From positions 1 to 30,314 of IMG/VR virus record IMGVR_UViG_2675903650_000004: a stretch of DNA of 30,314 nt. One strand, given 5' to 3'. The notes below the pieces were generated by a model. It did no database searches. It was not told the origin of the DNA and saw only the letters and a program-made list of their open reading frames with translations. The position numbers were made by a program, and so were the translations under genes. This document shows positions 3,007-26,509 of the stretch, piece after piece (position 1 is the first letter of the stretch; the number at the start of each line of letters is the position of its first letter). Source of the DNA: a virus. Its lineage: Duplodnaviria; Heunggongvirae; Uroviricota; Caudoviricetes.

Positions 3007-3397
3007 CGTCTTTTCTCCCCGGAATTAACTCACGTGGATTATCGGAACGGTGATAGAGCCAGATGCCAATTCGTACTGCGACGATTGCTGACACGAATGC
3101 GCCAGCAGAGAAAACAACCCCTTTCTCGAAAGAGTCCTGCGTGATAGTAGGGATCAGGCTAGCTACGCCTATAAGAATTGATGCTGCTGGTTTGTAGAAA
3201 AGAAGCCCACAGAGAAAGCTAAGCATCGACAAGAGTACGCGACGACTAATTGGGTACTCTACCGCAGAGGTAACAAAAATCACCGCTCCTGACAAAGACC
3301 CCAACGCTACTTCTGGAGGTACTCCTGCTATCACCGCAGCTAGAGAACCAAGACTAAGCCATTGATTTAATGTTTCACTGGTTAGTTGAACTGACAT
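2993..3397 (-). CDS. second holin/antiholin-like membrane protein
   Basis: ORF 2993..3406, about 4 hydrophobic helices; ATG at 3397 preferred over GTG 3406; first gene of lysis cassette after 400-nt untranslated region. Confidence 0.6.
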   Translation of the reverse strand: MSVQLTSETLNQWLSLGSLAAVIAGVPPEVALGSLSGAVIFVTSAVEYPISRRVLLSMLSFLCGLLFYKPAASILIGVASLIPTITQDSFEKGVVFSAGAFVSAIVAVRIGIWLYHRSDNPRELIPGRKDDGNV

Positions 3398-3812
3398 AGA
3401 AACCACCGTTTACTGTGCATAAAGACCCACCTTAGTTGGTGAGTCCATCATACACAATTAATACATATATGGTTTAATTGAAATCCCCAAAAACATTCTG
3501 AATAGGTGAGGTGTTTTCTGGCTCCATAGCTATGACGTGGCTTTTGATGCCTAACTTTATAAGGTGCCACGACAATGTGATAGGTACATAGGATTCAGTT
3601 ACCAATGCAAAGCTTTGTGTGTCTCAGTTTTGTCTCATGCCAACCCAGTAGAATCAATCTACTTAATCTCTCTGCAGTGAATATTTTGTTTGCACGCAAT
3701 TGCACATGATGAACTGGCGCTTATGATAATTTCTGACGGTGATCTGATGGGAGTGAAAGTGCGGCTATCTGATGATACAATGCTCTTCAAAATAAACAGT
3801 TAGGTGATTTTT

Positions 3813-4859: not shown

Positions 4860-4886
4860 AAAAGGGGCTTTCAGCCCCTTTTTTTA
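4860..4886. terminator. bidirectional intrinsic terminator between convergent acyltransferase and tailspike genes
   Basis: Stem AGGGGCT / AGCCCCT with 3-nt loop, A-run upstream and T-run downstream (coordinates approximate). Confidence 0.7.
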
Positions 4887-6986
4887 CGTGGTAGTTGCGG
4901 ATACCTTCCATTCACCAGTTGATACGTATGTCCACTTCCACGGTCCGGTAGAAACCGGACCAAGCAATTCCCACTTGGTGCCAAACGGGAAATTAGTTGT
5001 ATCTCCCGTGGGTGGTGATACTGATAGAACCGTTATATATCCTGACTCAAGTCTGCATAATGCAGTCCATGATGAGTTTCCGGTTATACTATAGGTGCCG
5101 CCTGAATCAACCTTGTTGATCCAGCTCTGCCCACTCCCCCATCTAATAGAATCAGTGGTGTTGTCGGGAATTACCGCACCATTAAAATTTGCAGTTGCAT
5201 CATTAAGATATATGTATTTGCTAGATGAGACTCCAGAGTAACCAGAAAAATGAGATGAAACCAATGAGATGAAACACGATTCCAGAGATACAGCTTCAAC
5301 TCCTCCATCATGATGATTAACCCCTCTAAATGCAGTTACGTTAATTCGACTACCATTTATATCAAATATTTTACCAGTGCCTTCTTCGCTTCCGCATCCA
5401 GATAGATTTACTCCAGTACAATCTTTAAATTTATAGCCAGTACCATTAACGAAGTCAGCAGCCAAACAAGTCAGGCTGCTATATGTAATGTTATTAAAAT
5501 CATATGCAACACCTGAACATGTTTTCACATAAATATTGTTTAAATTATATGTGGTTCCACCTGCTTCGATTTTAACTCCAGTAACGACATCCTGAATAGT
5601 AATGTTTTCCCATGTCTGCAACCAGCTATCACTAGTGCGATAACCGGTTTTCACCCTATGAATATACAGGTCCTGAAGGCGCACATTGTAACTGATAGCG
5701 CTATATATCCCGTAATCACAAGGATTGGGCGCAGTATTTAGAATACTCAATCCAATTATTCTGGTGCTTCTTGTTTGTTTCCCGCTTAAATCACCTGATG
5801 TGTCACTATCCATATCTACCGCAACAATAAAGTCTTTGGAGAAGCTGTGTGGTACACCCTGCCACATGCGATCCGGAACGGTTTTAATATCGTTACCTGT
5901 TTTAATTAATCCACAGGAATCCATACCGCACCCCTCCAGCGTGACACGTGGAGGCACGATAGCGCCATACTTAATATCGTAAAATCCATTGAGTCTGAGC
6001 GTACCTCCTTCATATGGAAGGCATGCAGTCAGGCGTTCAAAGGCTTCACTGTTTTGCTCAGCCGTACATGATGTCATCATGCCACCGTTCTCTACCGGAA
6101 TATCGATGTGGCTTCCAGCTCTCTTCCATCGCTTACCGCCGGGGGTAACAAAAATATTCACACCATCGTCAGCTTCAGAACTGTCAAACGACATGAACAC
6201 CCCACCTCCAAGACCGGGGGTATCGCTATAATAACCTCTGACAATAATTTGCTGGTTTACTGACGAAGGTTCAGTATTTCTTAATGTGGCCACATCAGGG
6301 CAGGAACCGATATTTTTAAACCCATCGGTGGCAGCAAGCTGCAACATGACATCAGTAGCGCTCCCAGATTCCGGGAGAACCATGATTGGGTCTCCTGAAT
6401 CATCCATTGCAACAATCTTATTCTTACGTTGCTCAACGCCGGGCAAAGTTGATATCGGTTCGGGAGTTCGTAGCGTTCTGCTCAGGTTTGTTTCTGCAAG
6501 CCCGTCAACATAATTTTTCGTTGCTGCATCTTGCGGCCTAGATGGGTCACGAAGATTACGAATATAGTTATTCATCGCGTCGTAATAATTAGCCACGAAC
6601 GACGGCTTTCGTAGCGCCAGACTGAACCAATTTCGAACCTGCTGGATCAGCATCGTTAGCTTATCAAAAGCGTTCTCATGCACTTCTGCAAAGAACTTAC
6701 CCTGATTACGCAAATCAGTTTCCTGCGTAACCGGTAGCTCTCGATATATAGAAATCAGATAACCGTTAGCCAACACCTTCGACAGAATTACATTACCACC
6801 GTTATATCCTCCCGCCCCGGTAACTGTGTAATCAGTATCAAGAGCAAGAACAGTGATATTTTCATCAAGGTCAACCACTTGTACTACCAGATCAGATTTC
6901 TGGAAAATCCTGAAGGTATACGGAAATGATGTCGTAACACCGTTACCTGTGTATTCGTTGTGGTCAACTTCGGTTGAGACCGTCAT
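4884..6986 (-). CDS. tailspike / tail fibre with T7 gp17-like N-terminal anchor and beta-helix-like receptor-binding body
   Basis: 700 aa; N-terminal about 150 aa match the conserved podovirus tail-fibre anchor pattern (YTGNGVTTSFPYTF...DYTV) as remembered for T7 gp17; remainder rich in G/S/T/N beta-strand repeats typical of polysaccharide-binding or depolymerase tailspikes. Confidence 0.85.
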   Translation of the reverse strand: MTVSTEVDHNEYTGNGVTTSFPYTFRIFQKSDLVVQVVDLDENITVLALDTDYTVTGAGGYNGGNVILSKVLANGYLISIYRELPVTQETDLRNQGKFFAEVHENAFDKLTMLIQQVRNWFSLALRKPSFVANYYDAMNNYIRNLRDPSRPQDAATKNYVDGLAETNLSRTLRTPEPISTLPGVEQRKNKIVAMDDSGDPIMVLPESGSATDVMLQLAATDGFKNIGSCPDVATLRNTEPSSVNQQIIVRGYYSDTPGLGGGVFMSFDSSEADDGVNIFVTPGGKRWKRAGSHIDIPVENGGMMTSCTAEQNSEAFERLTACLPYEGGTLRLNGFYDIKYGAIVPPRVTLEGCGMDSCGLIKTGNDIKTVPDRMWQGVPHSFSKDFIVAVDMDSDTSGDLSGKQTRSTRIIGLSILNTAPNPCDYGIYSAISYNVRLQDLYIHRVKTGYRTSDSWLQTWENITIQDVVTGVKIEAGGTTYNLNNIYVKTCSGVAYDFNNITYSSLTCLAADFVNGTGYKFKDCTGVNLSGCGSEEGTGKIFDINGSRINVTAFRGVNHHDGGVEAVSLESCFISLVSSHFSGYSGVSSSKYIYLNDATANFNGAVIPDNTTDSIRWGSGQSWINKVDSGGTYSITGNSSWTALCRLESGYITVLSVSPPTGDTTNFPFGTKWELLGPVSTGPWKWTYVSTGEWKVSATTT

Positions 6987-7090
6987 GCTAAATCTCCAGA
7001 TAGTCGCAGCACCCGTTGCGCCGCATATCTGGCTATTTTATTACCCAACGAACCATATATGGATAGAAACATCATCAATACACACAGATA

Positions 7091-7105
7091 TTACCTTTCA
7101 GGTGA
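7091..7105. promoter_or_regulatory. operator-like palindrome TTACC-N5-GGTGA (site a), about 105 nt upstream of tailspike start
   Basis: ATTACCTTTCAGGTGA; 14/15 identical to site d at 26096; lies in the divergent region between tailspike and antirepressor module. Confidence 0.4.
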
Positions 7106-7138
7106 TTTGCAAAACGTGCTGGATAGCAAACAAATTAT

Positions 7139-7162
7139 TTGATACTGTATATTTGTACAGTT
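7139..7162 (+). promoter_or_regulatory. LexA (SOS) box overlapping a putative promoter
   Basis: TACTGTATATTTGTACAGTT = CTGT-N8-ACAG with AT-rich spacer (LexA consensus); TTGATA -35-like hexamer immediately upstream; 20 nt before the RBS (GGAG) of ORF 7182. Confidence 0.65.
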
Positions 7163-7181
7163 ATTGCATGGAGAAGATAAG

Positions 7182-7439
7182 ATGCAGCAGTATCACTATC
7201 CACTGGAAGACGGATTTACCGAAAGGATTCACACGCCGGGAGGCGTCAGATTACTGGTGGAGGGATCGCTCTTGATGAAATTACTCCGGGATCTCGATAA
7301 GGATGGATTTAATGTCGATGGCCCACTTGCCGAACTGACTGCACTGATTAACTACGTCACCAGCTCACAGATGTCTATGCAGGATCTGCAAACACATCTC
7401 GACTATTGTGCCGAACAATTACGAAAACAAACCAGATAA
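7182..7439 (+). CDS. small protein paralogous to the C-terminal domain of the downstream antirepressor (candidate SOS-induced antirepressor)
   Basis: ORF 7164..7439 (TTG) with ATG at 7182 and GGAG RBS; residues GGVRLLVEGSLLMKLLRDLDKDGFNVDGPLAELTALINYV...DLQTHLDYCAEQL align by eye with the C-terminus of ORF 7755..8465. Confidence 0.6.
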   Translation: MQQYHYPLEDGFTERIHTPGGVRLLVEGSLLMKLLRDLDKDGFNVDGPLAELTALINYVTSSQMSMQDLQTHLDYCAEQLRKQTR

Positions 7440-7442
7440 GGT

Positions 7443-7485
7443 TTGCAATTACCAAGTGGAGTGCTTATATTTACCTTTGAGGTAA
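7443..7485 (+). promoter_or_regulatory. promoter (TTGCAA-17-TATATT) with overlapping operator TTACCTTTGAGGTAA (site b)
   Basis: Sigma70-like hexamers with 17-nt spacer; 15-bp palindrome begins at last base of the -10. Confidence 0.5.
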
Positions 7486-7598
7486 ATTTACATCGCACTC
7501 CTCTTGTGCCATAGTAATCGGGTACTGGCAAAATCCAGTGCCGGGATTGGCGTCCCGAGTTACTAAGTGGCGCATACCACGCCAGACGTGGTTTTTTT
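7486..7598 (+). ncRNA. candidate structured leader or small RNA ending at an intrinsic terminator upstream of ant
   Basis: No ORF with RBS; several local hairpins (ACTGG/CCAGT, CGGGA/TCCCG); terminator ACCACG-CCAGA-CGTGGT followed by T7 at about 7576..7598. Confidence 0.3.
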
Positions 7599-7754
7599 AT
7601 GCGTTAAGCACAGCCATATCCGAATTATGGTGGGCTGGGCAGGGGTCCGAAAGGACGCCGGTACCACTTAGGCCGGTACGCCAACCTTGTCCAGTTCACC
7701 ACCAGTAATTGGCGTTGCGGTGGTGATTAAAATCACTAAGTGGAGATAACCACC

Positions 7755-8465
7755 ATGGCTAATGCTCAAACTGCCATCTTCAAATTTGAATCTGTTAACC
7801 CTATCCGTTCCATCATTATCGATGGCCAACCATGGTTTGTAGCCCAAGACGTTTGTAGTGCGCTGCGTATCCAAAACGTCACCCAATCACTTGAAAAACT
7901 GGATGATGATGAAAGGTCTATGTTCAACATAGGGCATGAACATCGTGCAATTTTTGACAGCCGAGTAAAAGAGATCAACATCATCTCCGAGTCAGGCCTC
8001 TACACACTGATCCTCCGCTGCCGCGATGCGGTGACACCAGGCACTATCCCCTACCGCTTTCGTAAATGGGTTACAGGTGAGGTTCTTCCTCAGATCCGCC
8101 GCACCGGAAGTTACATTAAAAACTCGCTCCCGCAGGAAGAACGCATAAAGATGGTTGCCGACCAGGTAGCCAACGCCACGGCGTCAGCAGTAATACAGGC
8201 AATGAAGATAGAGAACAAAACCTACAGTGCCCCACTGAAGCCCGGCTACCGCAGCCTGATTCACTCGCCGTCTGGTGTTCTCGGCCTGACGGAGAACTCA
8301 CTGCTGATGAATCTGCTGAACCAGTTACAGGAAGACGGGCATGACGTATCGGGCGCGGCGGCGGAACTGACCACCATGTTCTGCTACATCGTCGGTGTGA
8401 GTAAATGCCTGCGTGATATCCAGACCCACGCGGAATACATCAACGACAAGGCAGGATTCTTCTGA
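7755..8465 (+). CDS. phage antirepressor (Bro-N / Ant N-terminal domain plus C-terminal domain)
   Basis: ORF 7740..8465 (GTG); ATG 7755 with GGAG 9 nt upstream; Bro-N-type signature FKFESVNPIRSIIIDGQPWFVAQDVCSALRI. Confidence 0.85.
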   Translation: MANAQTAIFKFESVNPIRSIIIDGQPWFVAQDVCSALRIQNVTQSLEKLDDDERSMFNIGHEHRAIFDSRVKEINIISESGLYTLILRCRDAVTPGTIPYRFRKWVTGEVLPQIRRTGSYIKNSLPQEERIKMVADQVANATASAVIQAMKIENKTYSAPLKPGYRSLIHSPSGVLGLTENSLLMNLLNQLQEDGHDVSGAAAELTTMFCYIVGVSKCLRDIQTHAEYINDKAGFF

Positions 8466-8509
8466 CGGGCGGTGGCACATGGATGTGCTTTTAAATAATT
8501 CTGTACAGA

Positions 8510-8552
8510 TTGCAGACTGTGGGTGAATAGCGTACTATTACCTCAAGGGTAA
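8510..8552 (+). promoter_or_regulatory. promoter (TTGCAG-17-TACTAT) with overlapping operator TTACCTCAAGGGTAA (site c)
   Basis: Same architecture as site b: -35, 17-nt spacer, -10, then 15-bp TTACC-N5-GGTAA palindrome. Confidence 0.5.
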
Positions 8553-8612
8553 ACGGATTGGTTTCATTTTTATTAATCCGTGTAATGAACTTATGAGATA
8601 TGAGGTAATGTC

Positions 8613-8792
8613 ATGCGAAACGAAAAATTGCAGATGCGTAGAGCGCAAGCTGCCGCAAGACGTTCTTTCAATGGAAGCGTAGAGTACGTAAAAGTTACTA
8701 TGACAAAAGATCACGCAAGTCGCGTATCCCGCGCTTTCTTTGATTCTCGTAACAATAAGGAAAATTATGAGTTCGTCTGCGTCGCAGAATGA
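8613..8792 (+). CDS. hypothetical 59-aa basic protein (candidate antitoxin or regulator)
   Basis: Not in ORF track (below length cut-off); ATG 8613 with GAGG 7 nt upstream; translation MRNEKLQMRRAQAAARRSF...; 3' end overlaps start of ORF 8767 by 26 nt. Confidence 0.35.
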   Translation: MRNEKLQMRRAQAAARRSFNGSVEYVKVTMTKDHASRVSRAFFDSRNNKENYEFVCVAE

Positions 8793-9312
8793 TAAAAATC
8801 AAATTGTCAGATATAAGGGTCGAGTATTGCATACGCAAAATTTCTCGGCCCTTTGTGCATCTGATCTTGAGCTGAAGAAAGTATCTGATGCCTTTACCCA
8901 GTATTGGAAAACGGGATACCATCCATCTCTTGGTAAAGATGCTGCATTTGCTCGTCCGACAGAAATGCTTAAACTAAATGTCAGGCATACTCATGTCGAT
9001 AACCAAGACTATATTCCAGAAGATAGTGATAAAAAACACACTGGTAAAAAATCATCTTGGGATGCATGGAAAAATATAGCGTCTGTACAAGTAAAATGCA
9101 TACCAACAAGTGATTGCTTTTTAGTTTATTCGGTAAATCACAATCGTGATGCGCTGGTTATGTTTTTTGTTGACGCAGATGCTCACAACATAACTGAGCA
9201 AGAAGAGTTTAAAGAGGCAGCAATCACTATCAGTTATCAATTCTTTGAGAAAACAAAAACAGAACCAATGCCTTTAGAAGAAGATCTTTTTTCTGATAAA
9301 TGGAAGGAATAG
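8767..9312 (+). CDS. hypothetical protein with YafO-like toxin motif (candidate toxin or abortive-infection effector)
   Basis: ORF 8740..9312 (TTG); ATG 8767 with AAGGA RBS; central G[KR]DA...RP...H.H.. and LVY...D.D.H pattern resembles YafO-family toxins as recalled from memory; AT-rich; own promoter/operator upstream and terminator downstream. Confidence 0.7.
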   Translation: MSSSASQNDKNQIVRYKGRVLHTQNFSALCASDLELKKVSDAFTQYWKTGYHPSLGKDAAFARPTEMLKLNVRHTHVDNQDYIPEDSDKKHTGKKSSWDAWKNIASVQVKCIPTSDCFLVYSVNHNRDALVMFFVDADAHNITEQEEFKEAAITISYQFFEKTKTEPMPLEEDLFSDKWKE

Positions 9313-26005: not shown

Positions 26006-26432
26006 ATCAATGACTCCGTACGCAATTAAATTATTACCAATTTAACCACATATGATTTATTTATCGTAGATAGTTGACATTTAACGCACGAATTATTACC
26101 TTTCAGGTAAGCAAAGAGTTCATTCCGGTTATTAACCTGACTGGCTTGTCGTTAAATTGAACAGGTGGAGTGAGCTTTTATTTTGAGCAGTACGGCGTAT
26201 GGCACATGCGCCGATAGCGGTCTGGATACGTTTAAGGGGCACCCTCCCTTGCTCGAGCAAACGAACCAGGTAGCCGGAATGTGCAAGTCGAGCGGTTTTA
26301 TTCCGCGCACGGGGATTCACCATCCCGGCGATTCGGTGTGACGCCTCGGAAGAGACGAGGGTACAACGATGAGAGCATTTATGGAGCCGCGACAAAGTGT
26401 GGCGCCTTAACAGGCTAAGTGCTCTCAGCGTT

Positions 26433-26509
26433 GTGGCATTAGCTCAGTTGGACAGAGCAACCGCCTTCTAAGCGGTTGGTCGCAGGTTCGAATCCTGCAT
26501 GCCACGCCA
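26433..26509 (+). tRNA. tRNA-Arg (anticodon UCU)
   Basis: Cloverleaf read by eye: acceptor GTGGCAT/ATGCCAC, D-arm GCTC-AGTTGGAC-AGAGC, anticodon stem ACCGC/GCGGT with loop CTTCTAA, T-arm GCAGG-TTCGAAT-CCTGC, 3' discriminator G + CCA. Confidence 0.85.

What the first reader, a model, noticed from the sequence alone, without database searches (positions are those of the whole stretch)
7443..7754. Promoter-operator followed by a structured leader and intrinsic terminator in front of ant
Between the small ORF and ant there is a sigma70-like promoter with an overlapping TTACC-N5-GGTAA operator, then about 110 nt with several hairpins and a clean terminator (about 7576..7598), then another 150 nt before ant. 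Expression of ant therefore seems to need terminator read-through, or the region encodes a small RNA. This is reminiscent of sRNA control of ant in P22 immI but in sense orientation.
Basis: seen in the sequence. Interest (0 to 1): 0.5.

Follow-up and report, generated by a model that had tools for sequence, protein, structure and literature searches.

The report
Known two-RNA switch guarding phage antirepressor
The stretch in front of this E. coli prophage's antirepressor gene is a real two-RNA control cassette, a terminated IsrK-like leader followed by a C4-type antisense RNA, but the same kind is already described in phage P1, Salmonella Gifsy-1 and APSE phages, so it is a new copy rather than a new mechanism.

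Summary

The "another 150 nt" before ant holds a C4 antisense RNA (7623-7706, Rfam RF01695, 66 bits against a gathering score of 45). The hairpins plus terminator are an IsrK RNA (7522-7598, RF01394, 63.5 against 50).

The C4 loop CCACUUAG and its single strand ACGCCAA are complementary to two site pairs:
- one inside the IsrK leader (a1 7547-7553, b1 7563-7570);
- one on the ant leader (a2 7709-7715, b2 7736-7743), where b2 overlaps the ant Shine-Dalgarno.

Across about 90 related loci, 44 different loop sequences covary with both targets. The a pairings are 100% maintained, with compensatory changes.

This is the layout of P1/P7 immI (c4-icd-ant) and of Gifsy-1 isrK-STnc1160-anrP. APSE phages were already reported to carry c4 and isrK next to a BRO-N gene.

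The palindrome is most likely the prophage repressor's operator: 8 sites in the window against 0.5 expected, and sites between the repressor and cro-like genes in relatives.

Verdict: a real, ordinary, unannotated new member of a known kind. Function is inferred from sequence and homology, not measured.

The parts
7443..7471 (+). Upstream promoter-like site (TTGCAA, 17 bp, TATATT); its -10 hexamer ends one base into the palindrome
   Evidence: 9 of 12. Same register at 9 of 12 or better in 18 of 25 distinct relatives despite 20 different spacer sequences.
7471..7485 (.). Palindromic operator TTACC-N5-GGTAA, lying between the two promoters and abutting the -35 of the downstream one
   Evidence: 8 sites in the window against 0.51 expected. 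14 in phiV10 against 0.77, two of them between the repressor and cro-like genes. 9 in the rest of the near-identical VE-T9 prophage, including that intergenic region. Half-sites are conserved while the 5-bp spacer varies, giving 10 variants.
7487..7515 (+). Family-wide isrK promoter (TTTACA, 17 bp, TG-CATAGT); expected start near 7521-7523
   Evidence: In 85 of 106 distinct loci a match of 9 of 12 or better ends 5-6 nt before hairpin 1.
7522..7598 (+). IsrK-like leader and small RNA (hairpin 1, hairpin 2, single-stranded b1, intrinsic terminator)
   Evidence: Rfam RF01394, 63.5 bits against gathering 50, full model 1-77. Fold. Hairpin 1 is 98% paired with compensatory change in 6 of 7 pairs.
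7547..7553 (+). a1 site UUGGCGU in the loop of hairpin 2 (7542-7557), complementary to C4 a'
   Evidence: The a1-a' pairing is 100% maintained in 49 sequences, with 4 of 7 pairs changed on both sides. The homologous pairing was proven by compensatory mutations in Gifsy-1 (G28A/C162U, G31A/C159U; PMC4825925).
7563..7570 (+). b1 site CUAAGUGG, complementary to the C4 b' loop
   Evidence: Duplex -14.2 kcal/mol; 0.8% of shuffles do as well. With 44 distinct b' loops, the cognate complement averages 6.8 nt against 3.9 for non-cognate.
7576..7598 (+). Intrinsic terminator (6-bp stem ACCACG/CGUGGU, 5-nt loop, U7)
7623..7706 (+). C4-type antisense RNA: long basal stem, GAAA hairpin, b' hairpin, single-stranded a', then CCA after the stem
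   Evidence: Rfam RF01695, 66 bits against gathering 45, full model 1-87. -43.6 kcal/mol, z = -4.3. Basal stem 99.8% paired, 8 of 17 pairs with compensatory change.
7664..7671 (+). b' (CCACUUAG) in the loop of the second C4 hairpin
7678..7684 (+). a' (ACGCCAA), the single-stranded junction of C4
7709..7715 (+). a2 site UUGGCGU on the ant leader
   Evidence: The a'-a2 pairing is 100% maintained in 49 sequences, with 4 of 7 pairs changed on both sides. 90 of 90 loci carry the cognate a2 within 30 nt of C4.
7719..7726 (+). GGUGGUGA, complementary to the C4 3' strand (UCACCACC, 7696-7703); the helix puts a2 in a hairpin loop and excludes the C4 basal stem
   Evidence: 67 of 69 distinct sequences fold this way. 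Across the hairpin's two helices 87% of cells pair and 7 of 13 pairs change on both sides, above all 500 shuffles; the outer helix has 10 pairs, 6 of them changed on both sides.
7736..7743 (+). b2 site CUAAGUGG, overlapping the ant Shine-Dalgarno GGAG (7742-7745)
   Evidence: Duplex -13.6 kcal/mol; 0.2% of shuffles do as well. Cognate complement averages 7.9 nt against 4.5 for non-cognate. b2 ends 5-11 nt before the start codon in most loci.
7755..8465 (+). ant: Bro-N antirepressor, 236 aa
   Evidence: Pfam Bro-N, E = 3.7e-19. PHROG anti-repressor Ant, E = 4.9e-56. Annotated with the same start in RefSeq. 80% identical to ZX5 ORF4, whose overexpression lowered lysogeny (PMC9782041).

Best explanation
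The region is an immI-type RNA immunity cassette of an epsilon15-like (Uetakevirus) E. coli prophage.

Proposed steps (all inferred unless marked otherwise):
1. Transcription enters from two tandem promoters that flank an operator, most likely for the prophage's own HTH repressor.
2. The first 77 nt fold into an IsrK-like leader that displays a1 in a hairpin loop and b1 as single strand. Most transcripts stop at its terminator and give a short RNA.
3. Read-through transcripts carry a C4-type RNA. By analogy with P1 it is cut out as a stable RNA of about 80 nt; in P1 RNase P makes the 5' end.
4. The C4 loop b' and junction a' pair with b2 and a2 on the ant leader. Because b2 overlaps the Shine-Dalgarno, ribosomes are kept off ant, so the lysogen stays immune.
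5. The leader carries exact copies of the same two target sites. It can therefore occupy C4, either in cis inside the precursor or in trans as the short RNA, and so relieve the block. Gifsy-1 IsrK switches on antirepressor translation in this way.
6. The Bro-N Ant protein then antagonises the repressor.

Shown here: the sequence elements, their family membership, the complementarity and its covariation. Inferred by homology: transcription start sites, processing, the direction of each regulatory effect, and which protein binds the operator.
For: - Family hits: Rfam C4 and isrK both above their gathering scores, side by side on the ant strand. The same tandem occurs in all 14 non-P1 relatives tested, including Gifsy-1. 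P1 has c4-a1b1 plus C4, with a1, b1, c4, a2, b2 annotated in the same order.
- Complementarity in the window: a1 and a2 are both UUGGCGU; b1 and b2 are both CUAAGUGG; they face a' ACGCCAA and b' CCACUUAG.
- Covariation of b: 44 distinct b' loops. Only 1.2-1.3% of non-cognate pairs reach the cognate median.
- Covariation of a: 6 a' variants, with cognate a1 in 89 of 90 loci and cognate a2 in 90 of 90. The a1-a' and a'-a2 helices are each 100% paired with 4 compensatory pairs, and covariation scores beat all 500 shuffles and all slid controls.
- Position of b2: it ends 5-11 nt before the start codon in most loci, so it is the Shine-Dalgarno region.
- Transcription: no promoter-like site between the terminator and ant.
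- Experiments on homologues: read-through of the IsrK terminator, a translationally silent long RNA, trans-activation by short IsrK, a1-a' pairing proven by compensatory mutants, and a processed stable STnc1160 (which lies where Rfam finds C4) (PMC4825925). IsrK and STnc1160 are highly expressed in lysogens (PMC7067206). c4 represses Ant synthesis in P1 (PMC8546580; PMC12197685). C4 is an RNase P substrate (PMC11143913).
- Operator: motif enrichment, and location between the repressor and cro-like genes in relatives.
- Need for an antirepressor: the repressor of the near-identical prophage has HTH domains but no peptidase domain hit.
Against: - There are no expression, processing or binding data for this locus. 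Every functional step is inferred.
- The Rfam c4-a1b1 model scores 43.4, just under its gathering score of 46.7.
- Taken alone, the a'-a2 duplex energy in the window is no better than shuffles (19% do as well). Its support comes from covariation.
- In Gifsy-1, constitutive STnc1160 did not counteract IsrK; growth arrest was stronger (PMC4825925). That does not fit a simple model in which C4 represses and IsrK is a decoy.
- Gifsy-1 needs translation of orf45 for coupling. Here the equivalent ATG (7627) opens only 14 codons and stops in the b' loop, so that step cannot be transferred.
- The C4 3' strand also covaries with a downstream segment. This points to an alternative fold whose role is unknown.
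- Neither promoter is statistically distinguishable from chance within the window alone.
Confidence: 0.75

Rival explanations
1. Gifsy-1-style self-lock only. The C4-like segment does not act as a free trans repressor. The read-through mRNA is locked by cis pairing of a1/b1 with a'/b', and the only trans-acting RNA is the short IsrK, which opens the lock and activates ant.
For: This is the experimentally supported model for the closest characterised homologue (PMC4825925). Extra STnc1160 did not counteract IsrK there. a1-a' covaries perfectly.
Against: - a2 and b2 covary with a' and b' just as strictly as a1 and b1 do, and b2 sits on the Shine-Dalgarno of the regulated gene in most loci. A cis lock between leader and C4 alone would not require that.
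- STnc1160 accumulates as a separate stable RNA.
- P1 c4 acts in trans.
- The orf45 coupling step of that model is absent here.
Confidence: 0.12
2. P4-like control of transcription. The C4-like RNA pairs with the nascent leader and ant leader and acts mainly by causing premature termination or Rho-dependent polarity rather than by blocking ribosomes.
For: - The authors of the IsrK paper note that IsrK resembles seqA and STnc1160 resembles the CI RNA of P4, which works by termination.
- b1 lies 5 nt before the terminator stem.
- A helix bracketing the terminator covaries.
- In P1, a translational block of icd is said to reduce ant transcription (own knowledge: Biere, Citron and Schuster 1992).
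Against: b2 coincides with the Shine-Dalgarno in most loci, which points to the ribosome as the primary target. No terminator-like site lies between C4 and ant on the + strand.
Confidence: 0.08
3. A plain leader with a leaky terminator (attenuator) and no base-pairing RNA regulator. The hairpins would only tune transcription into ant.
For: A terminator between promoter and gene is enough to lower expression.
Against: It does not explain two Rfam family hits above threshold, nor three-way covariation of unpaired loop sequences with two distant sites across 44 specificity types.
Confidence: 0.02
4. The stretch encodes a small protein. Several records call ORFs here: 'ash family protein', 'SF0880-like', and orf45 in Gifsy-1.
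For: ORFs are annotated over this stretch in ZX5, Hafnia yong2 and VT2-Sakai. Translation of orf45 matters in Gifsy-1.
Against: - In the window the frame from ATG 7627 stops after 14 codons, inside the b' loop.
- The loops differ in length by amounts that are not multiples of three.
- Conservation follows base pairing, not codons.
- A review notes that the orf45 nucleotide sequence is conserved but its amino-acid sequence is not.
Confidence: 0.02
5. P22 immI-type control: a sar-like antisense RNA made from the opposite strand across the ant start.
Against: No promoter-like site on the - strand in 6500-9000. No Arc or Mnt family hit for the two small ORFs flanking ant. The regulator found is on the sense strand.
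Confidence: 0.01

Closest known systems
P1/P7 immI operon (operator Oc4, promoters P51a/P51b, a1 b1, c4, a2 b2, icd, ant1/2)
   Same: - Same order of parts on one strand: repressor operator, tandem promoters, a1, b1, C4 RNA, a2, b2, regulated gene.
- Same Rfam C4 family (P1 68.8 bits, window 66).
- b2 lies at the ribosome-binding site.
- The antirepressor is the cargo.
- Sequence differences in the pairing loops give different specificities.
   Different: - There is no icd-like ORF between C4 and ant; b2 sits directly on the ant Shine-Dalgarno.
- The leader ends in a strong intrinsic terminator and matches isrK, which P1 does not reach at the gathering score.
- Ant is a Bro-N protein, not P1 Ant1/2.
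- The operator has a different sequence and overlaps the start region of the upstream promoter rather than its -35.
- The host phage is an integrated podovirus, not a plasmid prophage.
Salmonella Gifsy-1 isrK, orf45/STnc1160, anrP (Hershko-Shalev et al. 2016, PMC4825925)
   Same: - isrK and C4 Rfam hits in tandem upstream of an antirepressor.
- Promoter immediately before hairpin 1.
- Same a' type (CGCCAA, with UUGGCG targets).
- Read-through design.
- b2 next to the antirepressor Shine-Dalgarno.
   Different: - orf45 is absent here (14 codons).
- AnrP is an ORF6N protein, not Bro-N.
- b' differs (CGGUGAU against CCACUUAG).
- The module sits next to the tail-fibre gene rather than next to Q.
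- Gifsy-1 lacks the TTACC-N5-GGTAA operator.
APSE phages of Hamiltonella: c4 and isrK next to a BRO-N gene (PMC7313666)
   Same: The same two Rfam families lie beside a Bro-N gene in a temperate podovirus, with a'/b' matching the region upstream of that gene.
   Different: The host and phage lineage differ. No sequence comparison was made here.
Satellite phage P4 immunity (seqA, CI RNA with seqB, seqC)
   Same: A processed sense-strand RNA lies between two copies of its own target. The link to IsrK and STnc1160 was drawn by the Gifsy-1 authors. Rfam groups C4 and c4-a1b1 in one clan, CL00128.
   Different: P4 CI works by premature transcription termination of replication genes, not by covering the ribosome-binding site of an antirepressor. 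P4 was not examined here.
P22 immI (mnt, arc, ant, sar RNA)
   Same: Small-RNA control of antirepressor translation.
   Different: sar is transcribed from the opposite strand. Arc and Mnt proteins control the promoters. None of these was found here.

Membership tests
C4 antisense RNA (Rfam RF01695) | Covariance-model score at or above the curated gathering score over the full model | tested here: met
   66.0 bits against 45, model positions 1-87 of 87, window 7623-7706 +.
C4 antisense RNA (Rfam RF01695) | Long basal stem enclosing a small hairpin, a second hairpin (b' loop) and a single-stranded a' stretch | tested here: met
   The minimum-free-energy and centroid folds are identical, -43.6 kcal/mol, z = -4.3. 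Basal stem 99.8% paired, with 8 of 17 pairs changed on both sides in 49 sequences.
C4 antisense RNA (Rfam RF01695) | a' and b' complementary to a2 and b2 downstream on the same strand, with b2 at the ribosome-binding site of the regulated gene | tested here: met
   a2 7709-7715 and b2 7736-7743 overlapping GGAG 7742-7745. Covariation.
C4 antisense RNA (Rfam RF01695) | Second copy of the targets (a1, b1) upstream of the RNA | tested here: met
   a1 7547-7553 and b1 7563-7570. Covariation. The c4-a1b1 model itself scores 43.4 against 46.7, just below threshold.
C4 antisense RNA (Rfam RF01695) | Excised from a longer transcript (RNase P at the 5' end) and acts in trans to repress antirepressor synthesis | not testable with these tools
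   Only sequence is available. A CCA follows the basal stem (7705-7707), as expected for an RNase P substrate (own knowledge: Hartmann et al. 1995, cited).
IsrK (Rfam RF01394) | Covariance-model score at or above the gathering score over the full model | tested here: met
   63.5 bits against 50, model positions 1-77 of 77, window 7522-7598 +.
IsrK (Rfam RF01394) | Two 5' hairpins, then a Rho-independent terminator | tested here: met
   Hairpin 1 has compensatory change in 6 of 7 pairs.
IsrK (Rfam RF01394) | Own sigma-70 promoter directly upstream | tested here: met
   TTTACA-17-CATAGT at 7487-7515, ending 5 nt before hairpin 1. The same register holds in 85 of 106 distinct loci. This is a consensus match only; the start site is not mapped.
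IsrK locus as characterised in Gifsy-1 | Upstream ORF (orf45) whose translation is coupled to the antirepressor | tested here: not met
   The frame from ATG 7627 ends at 7671 after 14 codons, 84 nt before the ant ATG.
IsrK locus as characterised in Gifsy-1 | Terminator read-through gives the antirepressor mRNA; the short RNA activates it in trans; Hfq binding | not testable with these tools
   No promoter-like site between 7516 and ant is consistent with read-through, but there are no transcript data.
P22 immI (sar/arc/mnt) | Antisense RNA from the opposite strand across the ant start, plus Arc and Mnt repressor genes | tested here: not met
   No - strand promoter-like site in 6500-9000. The small ORFs 7182-7439 and 8613-8792 have no Pfam hit.
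Bro-N antirepressor | N-terminal Bro-N domain above the Pfam cut-off; antirepressor activity | tested here: met
   Domain: 69.6 bits against 25.6. Activity was not tested here; the 80%-identical ZX5 ORF4 lowered lysogeny when overexpressed.

The most novel reading that the evidence does not exclude
The cassette may be more than the P1 scheme in two ways.

1. A conformational switch. The C4 3' strand covaries both with the C4 5' strand and with a segment just after a2. The precursor could therefore choose between a fold that releases mature C4 and a fold that presents a2 in a loop.
2. An SOS input. The co-oriented gene immediately upstream (7182-7439) carries the window's only strong LexA box (7143-7162). 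It encodes a stand-alone copy of the Ant C-terminal domain, and no terminator precedes the leader. DNA damage could therefore flood the cell with RNA bearing a1 and b1, titrate C4, and link the SOS response to derepression of the RNA-guarded antirepressor.
Probability: 0.2. Interest if true: 0.5.

Novelty: new member of a known kind. Interest (0 to 1): 0.25.

Why it matters
The finding shows that a stretch left blank in RefSeq and GenBank records of this prophage group is a complete RNA immunity cassette. In some related records the same stretch is mis-called as small 'Ash' or hypothetical proteins. About a tenth of complete E. coli genomes carry DNA matching this region.

The comparative set gives a clean natural experiment: 44 b' specificities and 6 a' variants that assort independently. 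It could be used to predict which co-resident prophages cross-regulate each other's antirepressors, and to design orthogonal RNA repressor-target pairs.

It does not change what is known about how such cassettes work.

Tried and rejected
- P22-like identity. I first took the phage for P22-like because of the tailspike next to ant. DNA matches show an epsilon15-like Uetakevirus, and P22 immI features are absent.\n- Protein-coding reading of the leader and C4: rejected (14-codon frame, indels not in threes, conservation that follows pairing).\n- A hairpin that would sequester the ant start (GGUGGU 7720-25 with 7751-56) is predicted by folding but has no covariation support: 243 of 500 shuffles do as well. 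I do not claim it.\n- My first test of the helix between the C4 3' strand and the downstream segment used 9-mers in the wrong register and showed nothing. Refolding around a2 and counting pairs on the alignment did show it.\n- Column-wise counts for b-b' are weakened by loop-length differences in the MAFFT alignment (46-62% paired). The alignment-free cognate against non-cognate test is the reliable one.\n- The original P1 papers (PMC41593, PMC312442) are not held. What I say about RNase P and the 77-nt product rests on reference lists, a review, the P1 GenBank annotation and my own knowledge.\n- I found no paper describing the RNA cassette or the TTACC-N5-GGTAA operator in Uetakeviruses.\n- The large protein-database, structure-prediction and metagenome tools were not needed and not used.

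Full report
**What the window is.** The 1.5 kb around the finding is 99.9% identical to a prophage in E. coli VE-T9 and 98% identical to phage HEMP4. It is 92-94% identical to phiV10, TL-2011b and ZX5, which are epsilon15-like podoviruses of the genus Uetakevirus. Of 5,426 complete E. coli genomes, 534 have a match. The gene order is tail fibre (4884-6986, -), a small ORF (7182-7439, +), the region in question, ant (7755-8465, +, Bro-N domain, E = 3.7e-19), a YafO-like toxin gene, then the virion genes. None of the records examined annotates an RNA gene here. phiV10 marks only a "putative rho-independent terminator".

**Check of the observation.**
- TTGCAA-17-TATATT lies at 7443-7471, and the terminator stem at 7576-7592 is followed by seven T.
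- The palindrome TTACCTTTGAGGTAA lies at 7471-7485.
- As a pattern, the palindrome is far above chance: 8 sites in the window against 0.51 expected.
- Within the window alone, the promoter is not above chance (4 sites found, 4.9 expected). In 18 of 25 distinct relatives, however, a match of 9 of 12 or better keeps the same register against the palindrome, although the spacer has 20 different sequences.
- A second promoter, TTTACA-17-CATAGT (7487-7515), ends 5 nt before the first hairpin. This one is shared by the whole family, in 85 of 106 distinct loci.

**What it is.**
- A search of all Rfam families gives two hits above their curated thresholds, side by side on the ant strand. isrK covers 7522-7598 (63.5 bits against 50) and C4 antisense RNA covers 7623-7706 (66 bits against 45).
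- The a1b1 target model scores just under its threshold (43.4 against 46.7).
- C4 folds as the family consensus does: a long basal stem, a GAAA hairpin, a second hairpin and a single-stranded junction (-43.6 kcal/mol, z = -4.3).

**Anatomy of the pairing.**
- The loop of the second C4 hairpin reads CCACUUAG (b', 7664-7671). The junction reads ACGCCAA (a', 7678-7684).
- Their exact complements occur twice. UUGGCGU and CUAAGUGG lie in the leader (a1 7547-7553, in the loop of hairpin 2; b1 7563-7570). The same two sequences lie on the ant leader (a2 7709-7715; b2 7736-7743).
- b2 overlaps the Shine-Dalgarno GGAG (7742-7745), 9 nt before the ATG.
- This is the order annotated in P1: operator, two promoters, a1, b1, c4, a2, b2, regulated gene.

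**Comparative evidence.**
- blastn finds the region in 244 phage records: Uetakeviruses of E. coli, Enterobacter and Klebsiella, phages of Hafnia and Yersinia, and many Stx phages.
- All 14 non-P1 loci tested, Gifsy-1 included, have isrK and C4 in tandem above threshold.
- A pattern scan of viral contigs added 120 loci, giving 111 distinct sequences.
- Among about 90 that could be parsed there are 44 different b' loops. The longest Watson-Crick complement to the cognate b1 and b2 averages 6.8 and 7.9 nt, against 3.9 and 4.5 nt for non-cognate partners. Only 1.2-1.3% of non-cognate pairs reach the cognate median.
- Six a' variants are matched by a1 in 89 of 90 loci and by a2 in 90 of 90.
- On a 49-sequence alignment, the a1-a' and a'-a2 helices are each 100% paired with four pairs changed on both sides. 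Covariation scores exceed all 500 shuffles and every slid control.
- The intramolecular helices are supported in the same way.
- b2 ends 5-11 nt before the start codon in most loci.
- The downstream gene varies: Bro-N, ORF6N, Rha, Bro-N plus P22_AR_C, or a short ORF. The RNA cassette therefore behaves as a portable controller of antirepressor-type genes. The window's layout, with b2 directly on a gene of about 230 codons, is the commonest one.

**How it most likely works.**
- In P1, c4 RNA is processed from the operon transcript and represses Ant synthesis by pairing near the ribosome-binding site. It is an RNase P substrate.
- In Gifsy-1, part of the transcripts from the isrK promoter read through the terminator and give a translationally silent mRNA.
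- Short IsrK acts in trans to switch on antirepressor translation. The pairing that locks the long RNA was proven by compensatory mutations (G28A/C162U, G31A/C159U). By position, that pairing is a1-a'.
- A stable processed RNA, STnc1160, lies where Rfam finds C4. IsrK and STnc1160 are abundant in lysogens.
- My model for the window combines these results. Most transcripts end at 7598 as an RNA of about 77 nt. Read-through supplies C4, which covers a2 and b2 and keeps ribosomes off ant. The leader, with identical target sites, competes for C4 and so relieves the block.
- No promoter-like site lies between the terminator and ant, so ant depends on read-through.
- All of these steps are inferred. 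What is shown is sequence, family membership and covariation.

**The operator.**
- The palindrome is not part of the portable cassette. Only the Uetakevirus group has it, always at the same distance from the leader.
- phiV10 has 14 copies against 0.77 expected. Two lie between the HTH repressor gene and the cro-like gene, two flank the early-left operon, and two precede the terminase genes.
- The rest of the near-identical VE-T9 prophage shows the same pattern.
- It is therefore most likely the operator of the prophage's main repressor, scattered over the genome much as C1 operators are in P1.
- It overlaps the start region of the upstream promoter and is centred about 44 bp before the expected start of the downstream one. 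The repressor should shut the former; its effect on the latter cannot be predicted.
- That repressor has HTH domains but no peptidase domain hit, which fits induction through antirepressors.

**Points that do not fit neatly.**
1. Constitutive STnc1160 did not counteract IsrK in Gifsy-1.
2. The orf45 coupling step of Gifsy-1 is absent here: the frame stops after 14 codons, inside the b' loop.
3. The C4 3' strand (7696-7703) covaries not only with the 5' strand but also with GGUGGUGA (7719-7726). This forms a hairpin with a2 in its loop in 67 of 69 distinct sequences, and the two helices exclude each other.
4. A helix bracketing the terminator also covaries.
5. A predicted hairpin over the ant start has no covariation support, and I do not claim it.

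**Novelty.** The kind is well known: P1/P7 c4 (1990s), Gifsy-1 IsrK (2016), Rfam families and the c4-a1b1 motif. The same pair of RNAs next to a BRO-N gene has been reported in APSE phages. I found no description for Uetakeviruses. The ZX5 study tested the Bro-N protein but, in the passages searched, does not discuss the region upstream of it. This locus is therefore a new, unannotated member of a known kind. Interest is low to moderate.

Noticed in passing
window 7143-7162 and 7182-7439: A strong LexA (SOS) box, TACTGTATATTTGTACAGTT (17 of 20 to consensus), is the only site in the window scoring at least 14 of 20. It lies about 20 nt before the small ORF. It is conserved in position in phiV10 (the only such site in its 39-kb genome), phiv142-3, ZX5, TL-2011b, Tyrion and EC.W1-9, and absent in three Klebsiella relatives. 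No + strand terminator separates this gene from the IsrK leader.
   Followed up: partly
window 7182-7439 against 7755-8465: The 85-aa small ORF is a paralogue of the C-terminal domain of Ant: 43% identity over 74 aa to Ant residues 155-228, E = 2e-15. Both match phrog_450. A LexA-box gene for the stand-alone domain therefore sits beside the RNA-guarded Bro-N fusion, suggesting two antirepressor versions with different inputs.
   Followed up: partly
window 3259, 7091, 8538, 18056, 26096, 29238, 29256; L017 (phiV10); L138 (VE-T9): TTACC-N5-GGTAA is scattered over the prophage in front of several transcription units: the small ORF, the ORFs after ant, the terminase genes (a tandem pair), the repressor/cro region and the integrase gene. 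This resembles the dispersed C1 operators of P1. I found no description in the papers searched.
   Followed up: partly
window 7696-7703 with 7719-7726: The C4 3' strand covaries with a segment just after a2, giving a hairpin that shows a2 in its loop and excludes the C4 basal stem. The same six sequences change all three strands together. Its role is unexplained.
   Followed up: yes
window 7568-7575 with 7599-7606: A helix that brackets the IsrK terminator hairpin and U-tract has covariation above all shuffles; the central pair is GC in 22 sequences, AU in 17 and GU in 8. It can form only in read-through RNA.
   Followed up: partly
window 8538-9312: After ant come an operator copy (8538-8552), a 59-aa ORF (8613-8792) and a YafO-family toxin ORF (8767-9312; Pfam YafO_toxin E = 1.2e-5; RefSeq 'type II toxin-antitoxin system YafO family toxin').
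   Followed up: no
L004 1697-1810; L011 1282-1965; L014 1563-1736: Public records annotate protein genes across the RNA genes: 'ash family protein' over C4 in ZX5, an 'Ash family protein' spanning isrK and C4 in Hafnia yong2, and orf34 over C4 in VT2-Sakai. These are probably mis-calls.
   Followed up: no
related loci (L003, L006, L009, L028, L080 and others): The a' and b' specificities assort independently. The window's b' (CCACTTAG) occurs with a' CGCCAA (window, L080) and with GACCAA (phiv142-3). b' CCTTTGTAG occurs with three different a'.
   Followed up: partly
L002 (phiV10) 3330-3660: phiV10 has TAAATA in place of TTTACA at the -35 of the isrK promoter. Its ant is shortened: the ORF is 194 aa in my reconstruction, and the record annotates a separate small ORF directly after it.
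   Followed up: no
window 26433-26506: A tRNA gene (73.3 bits) lies between the head genes and the terminase genes, near another operator copy at 26096.
   Followed up: no
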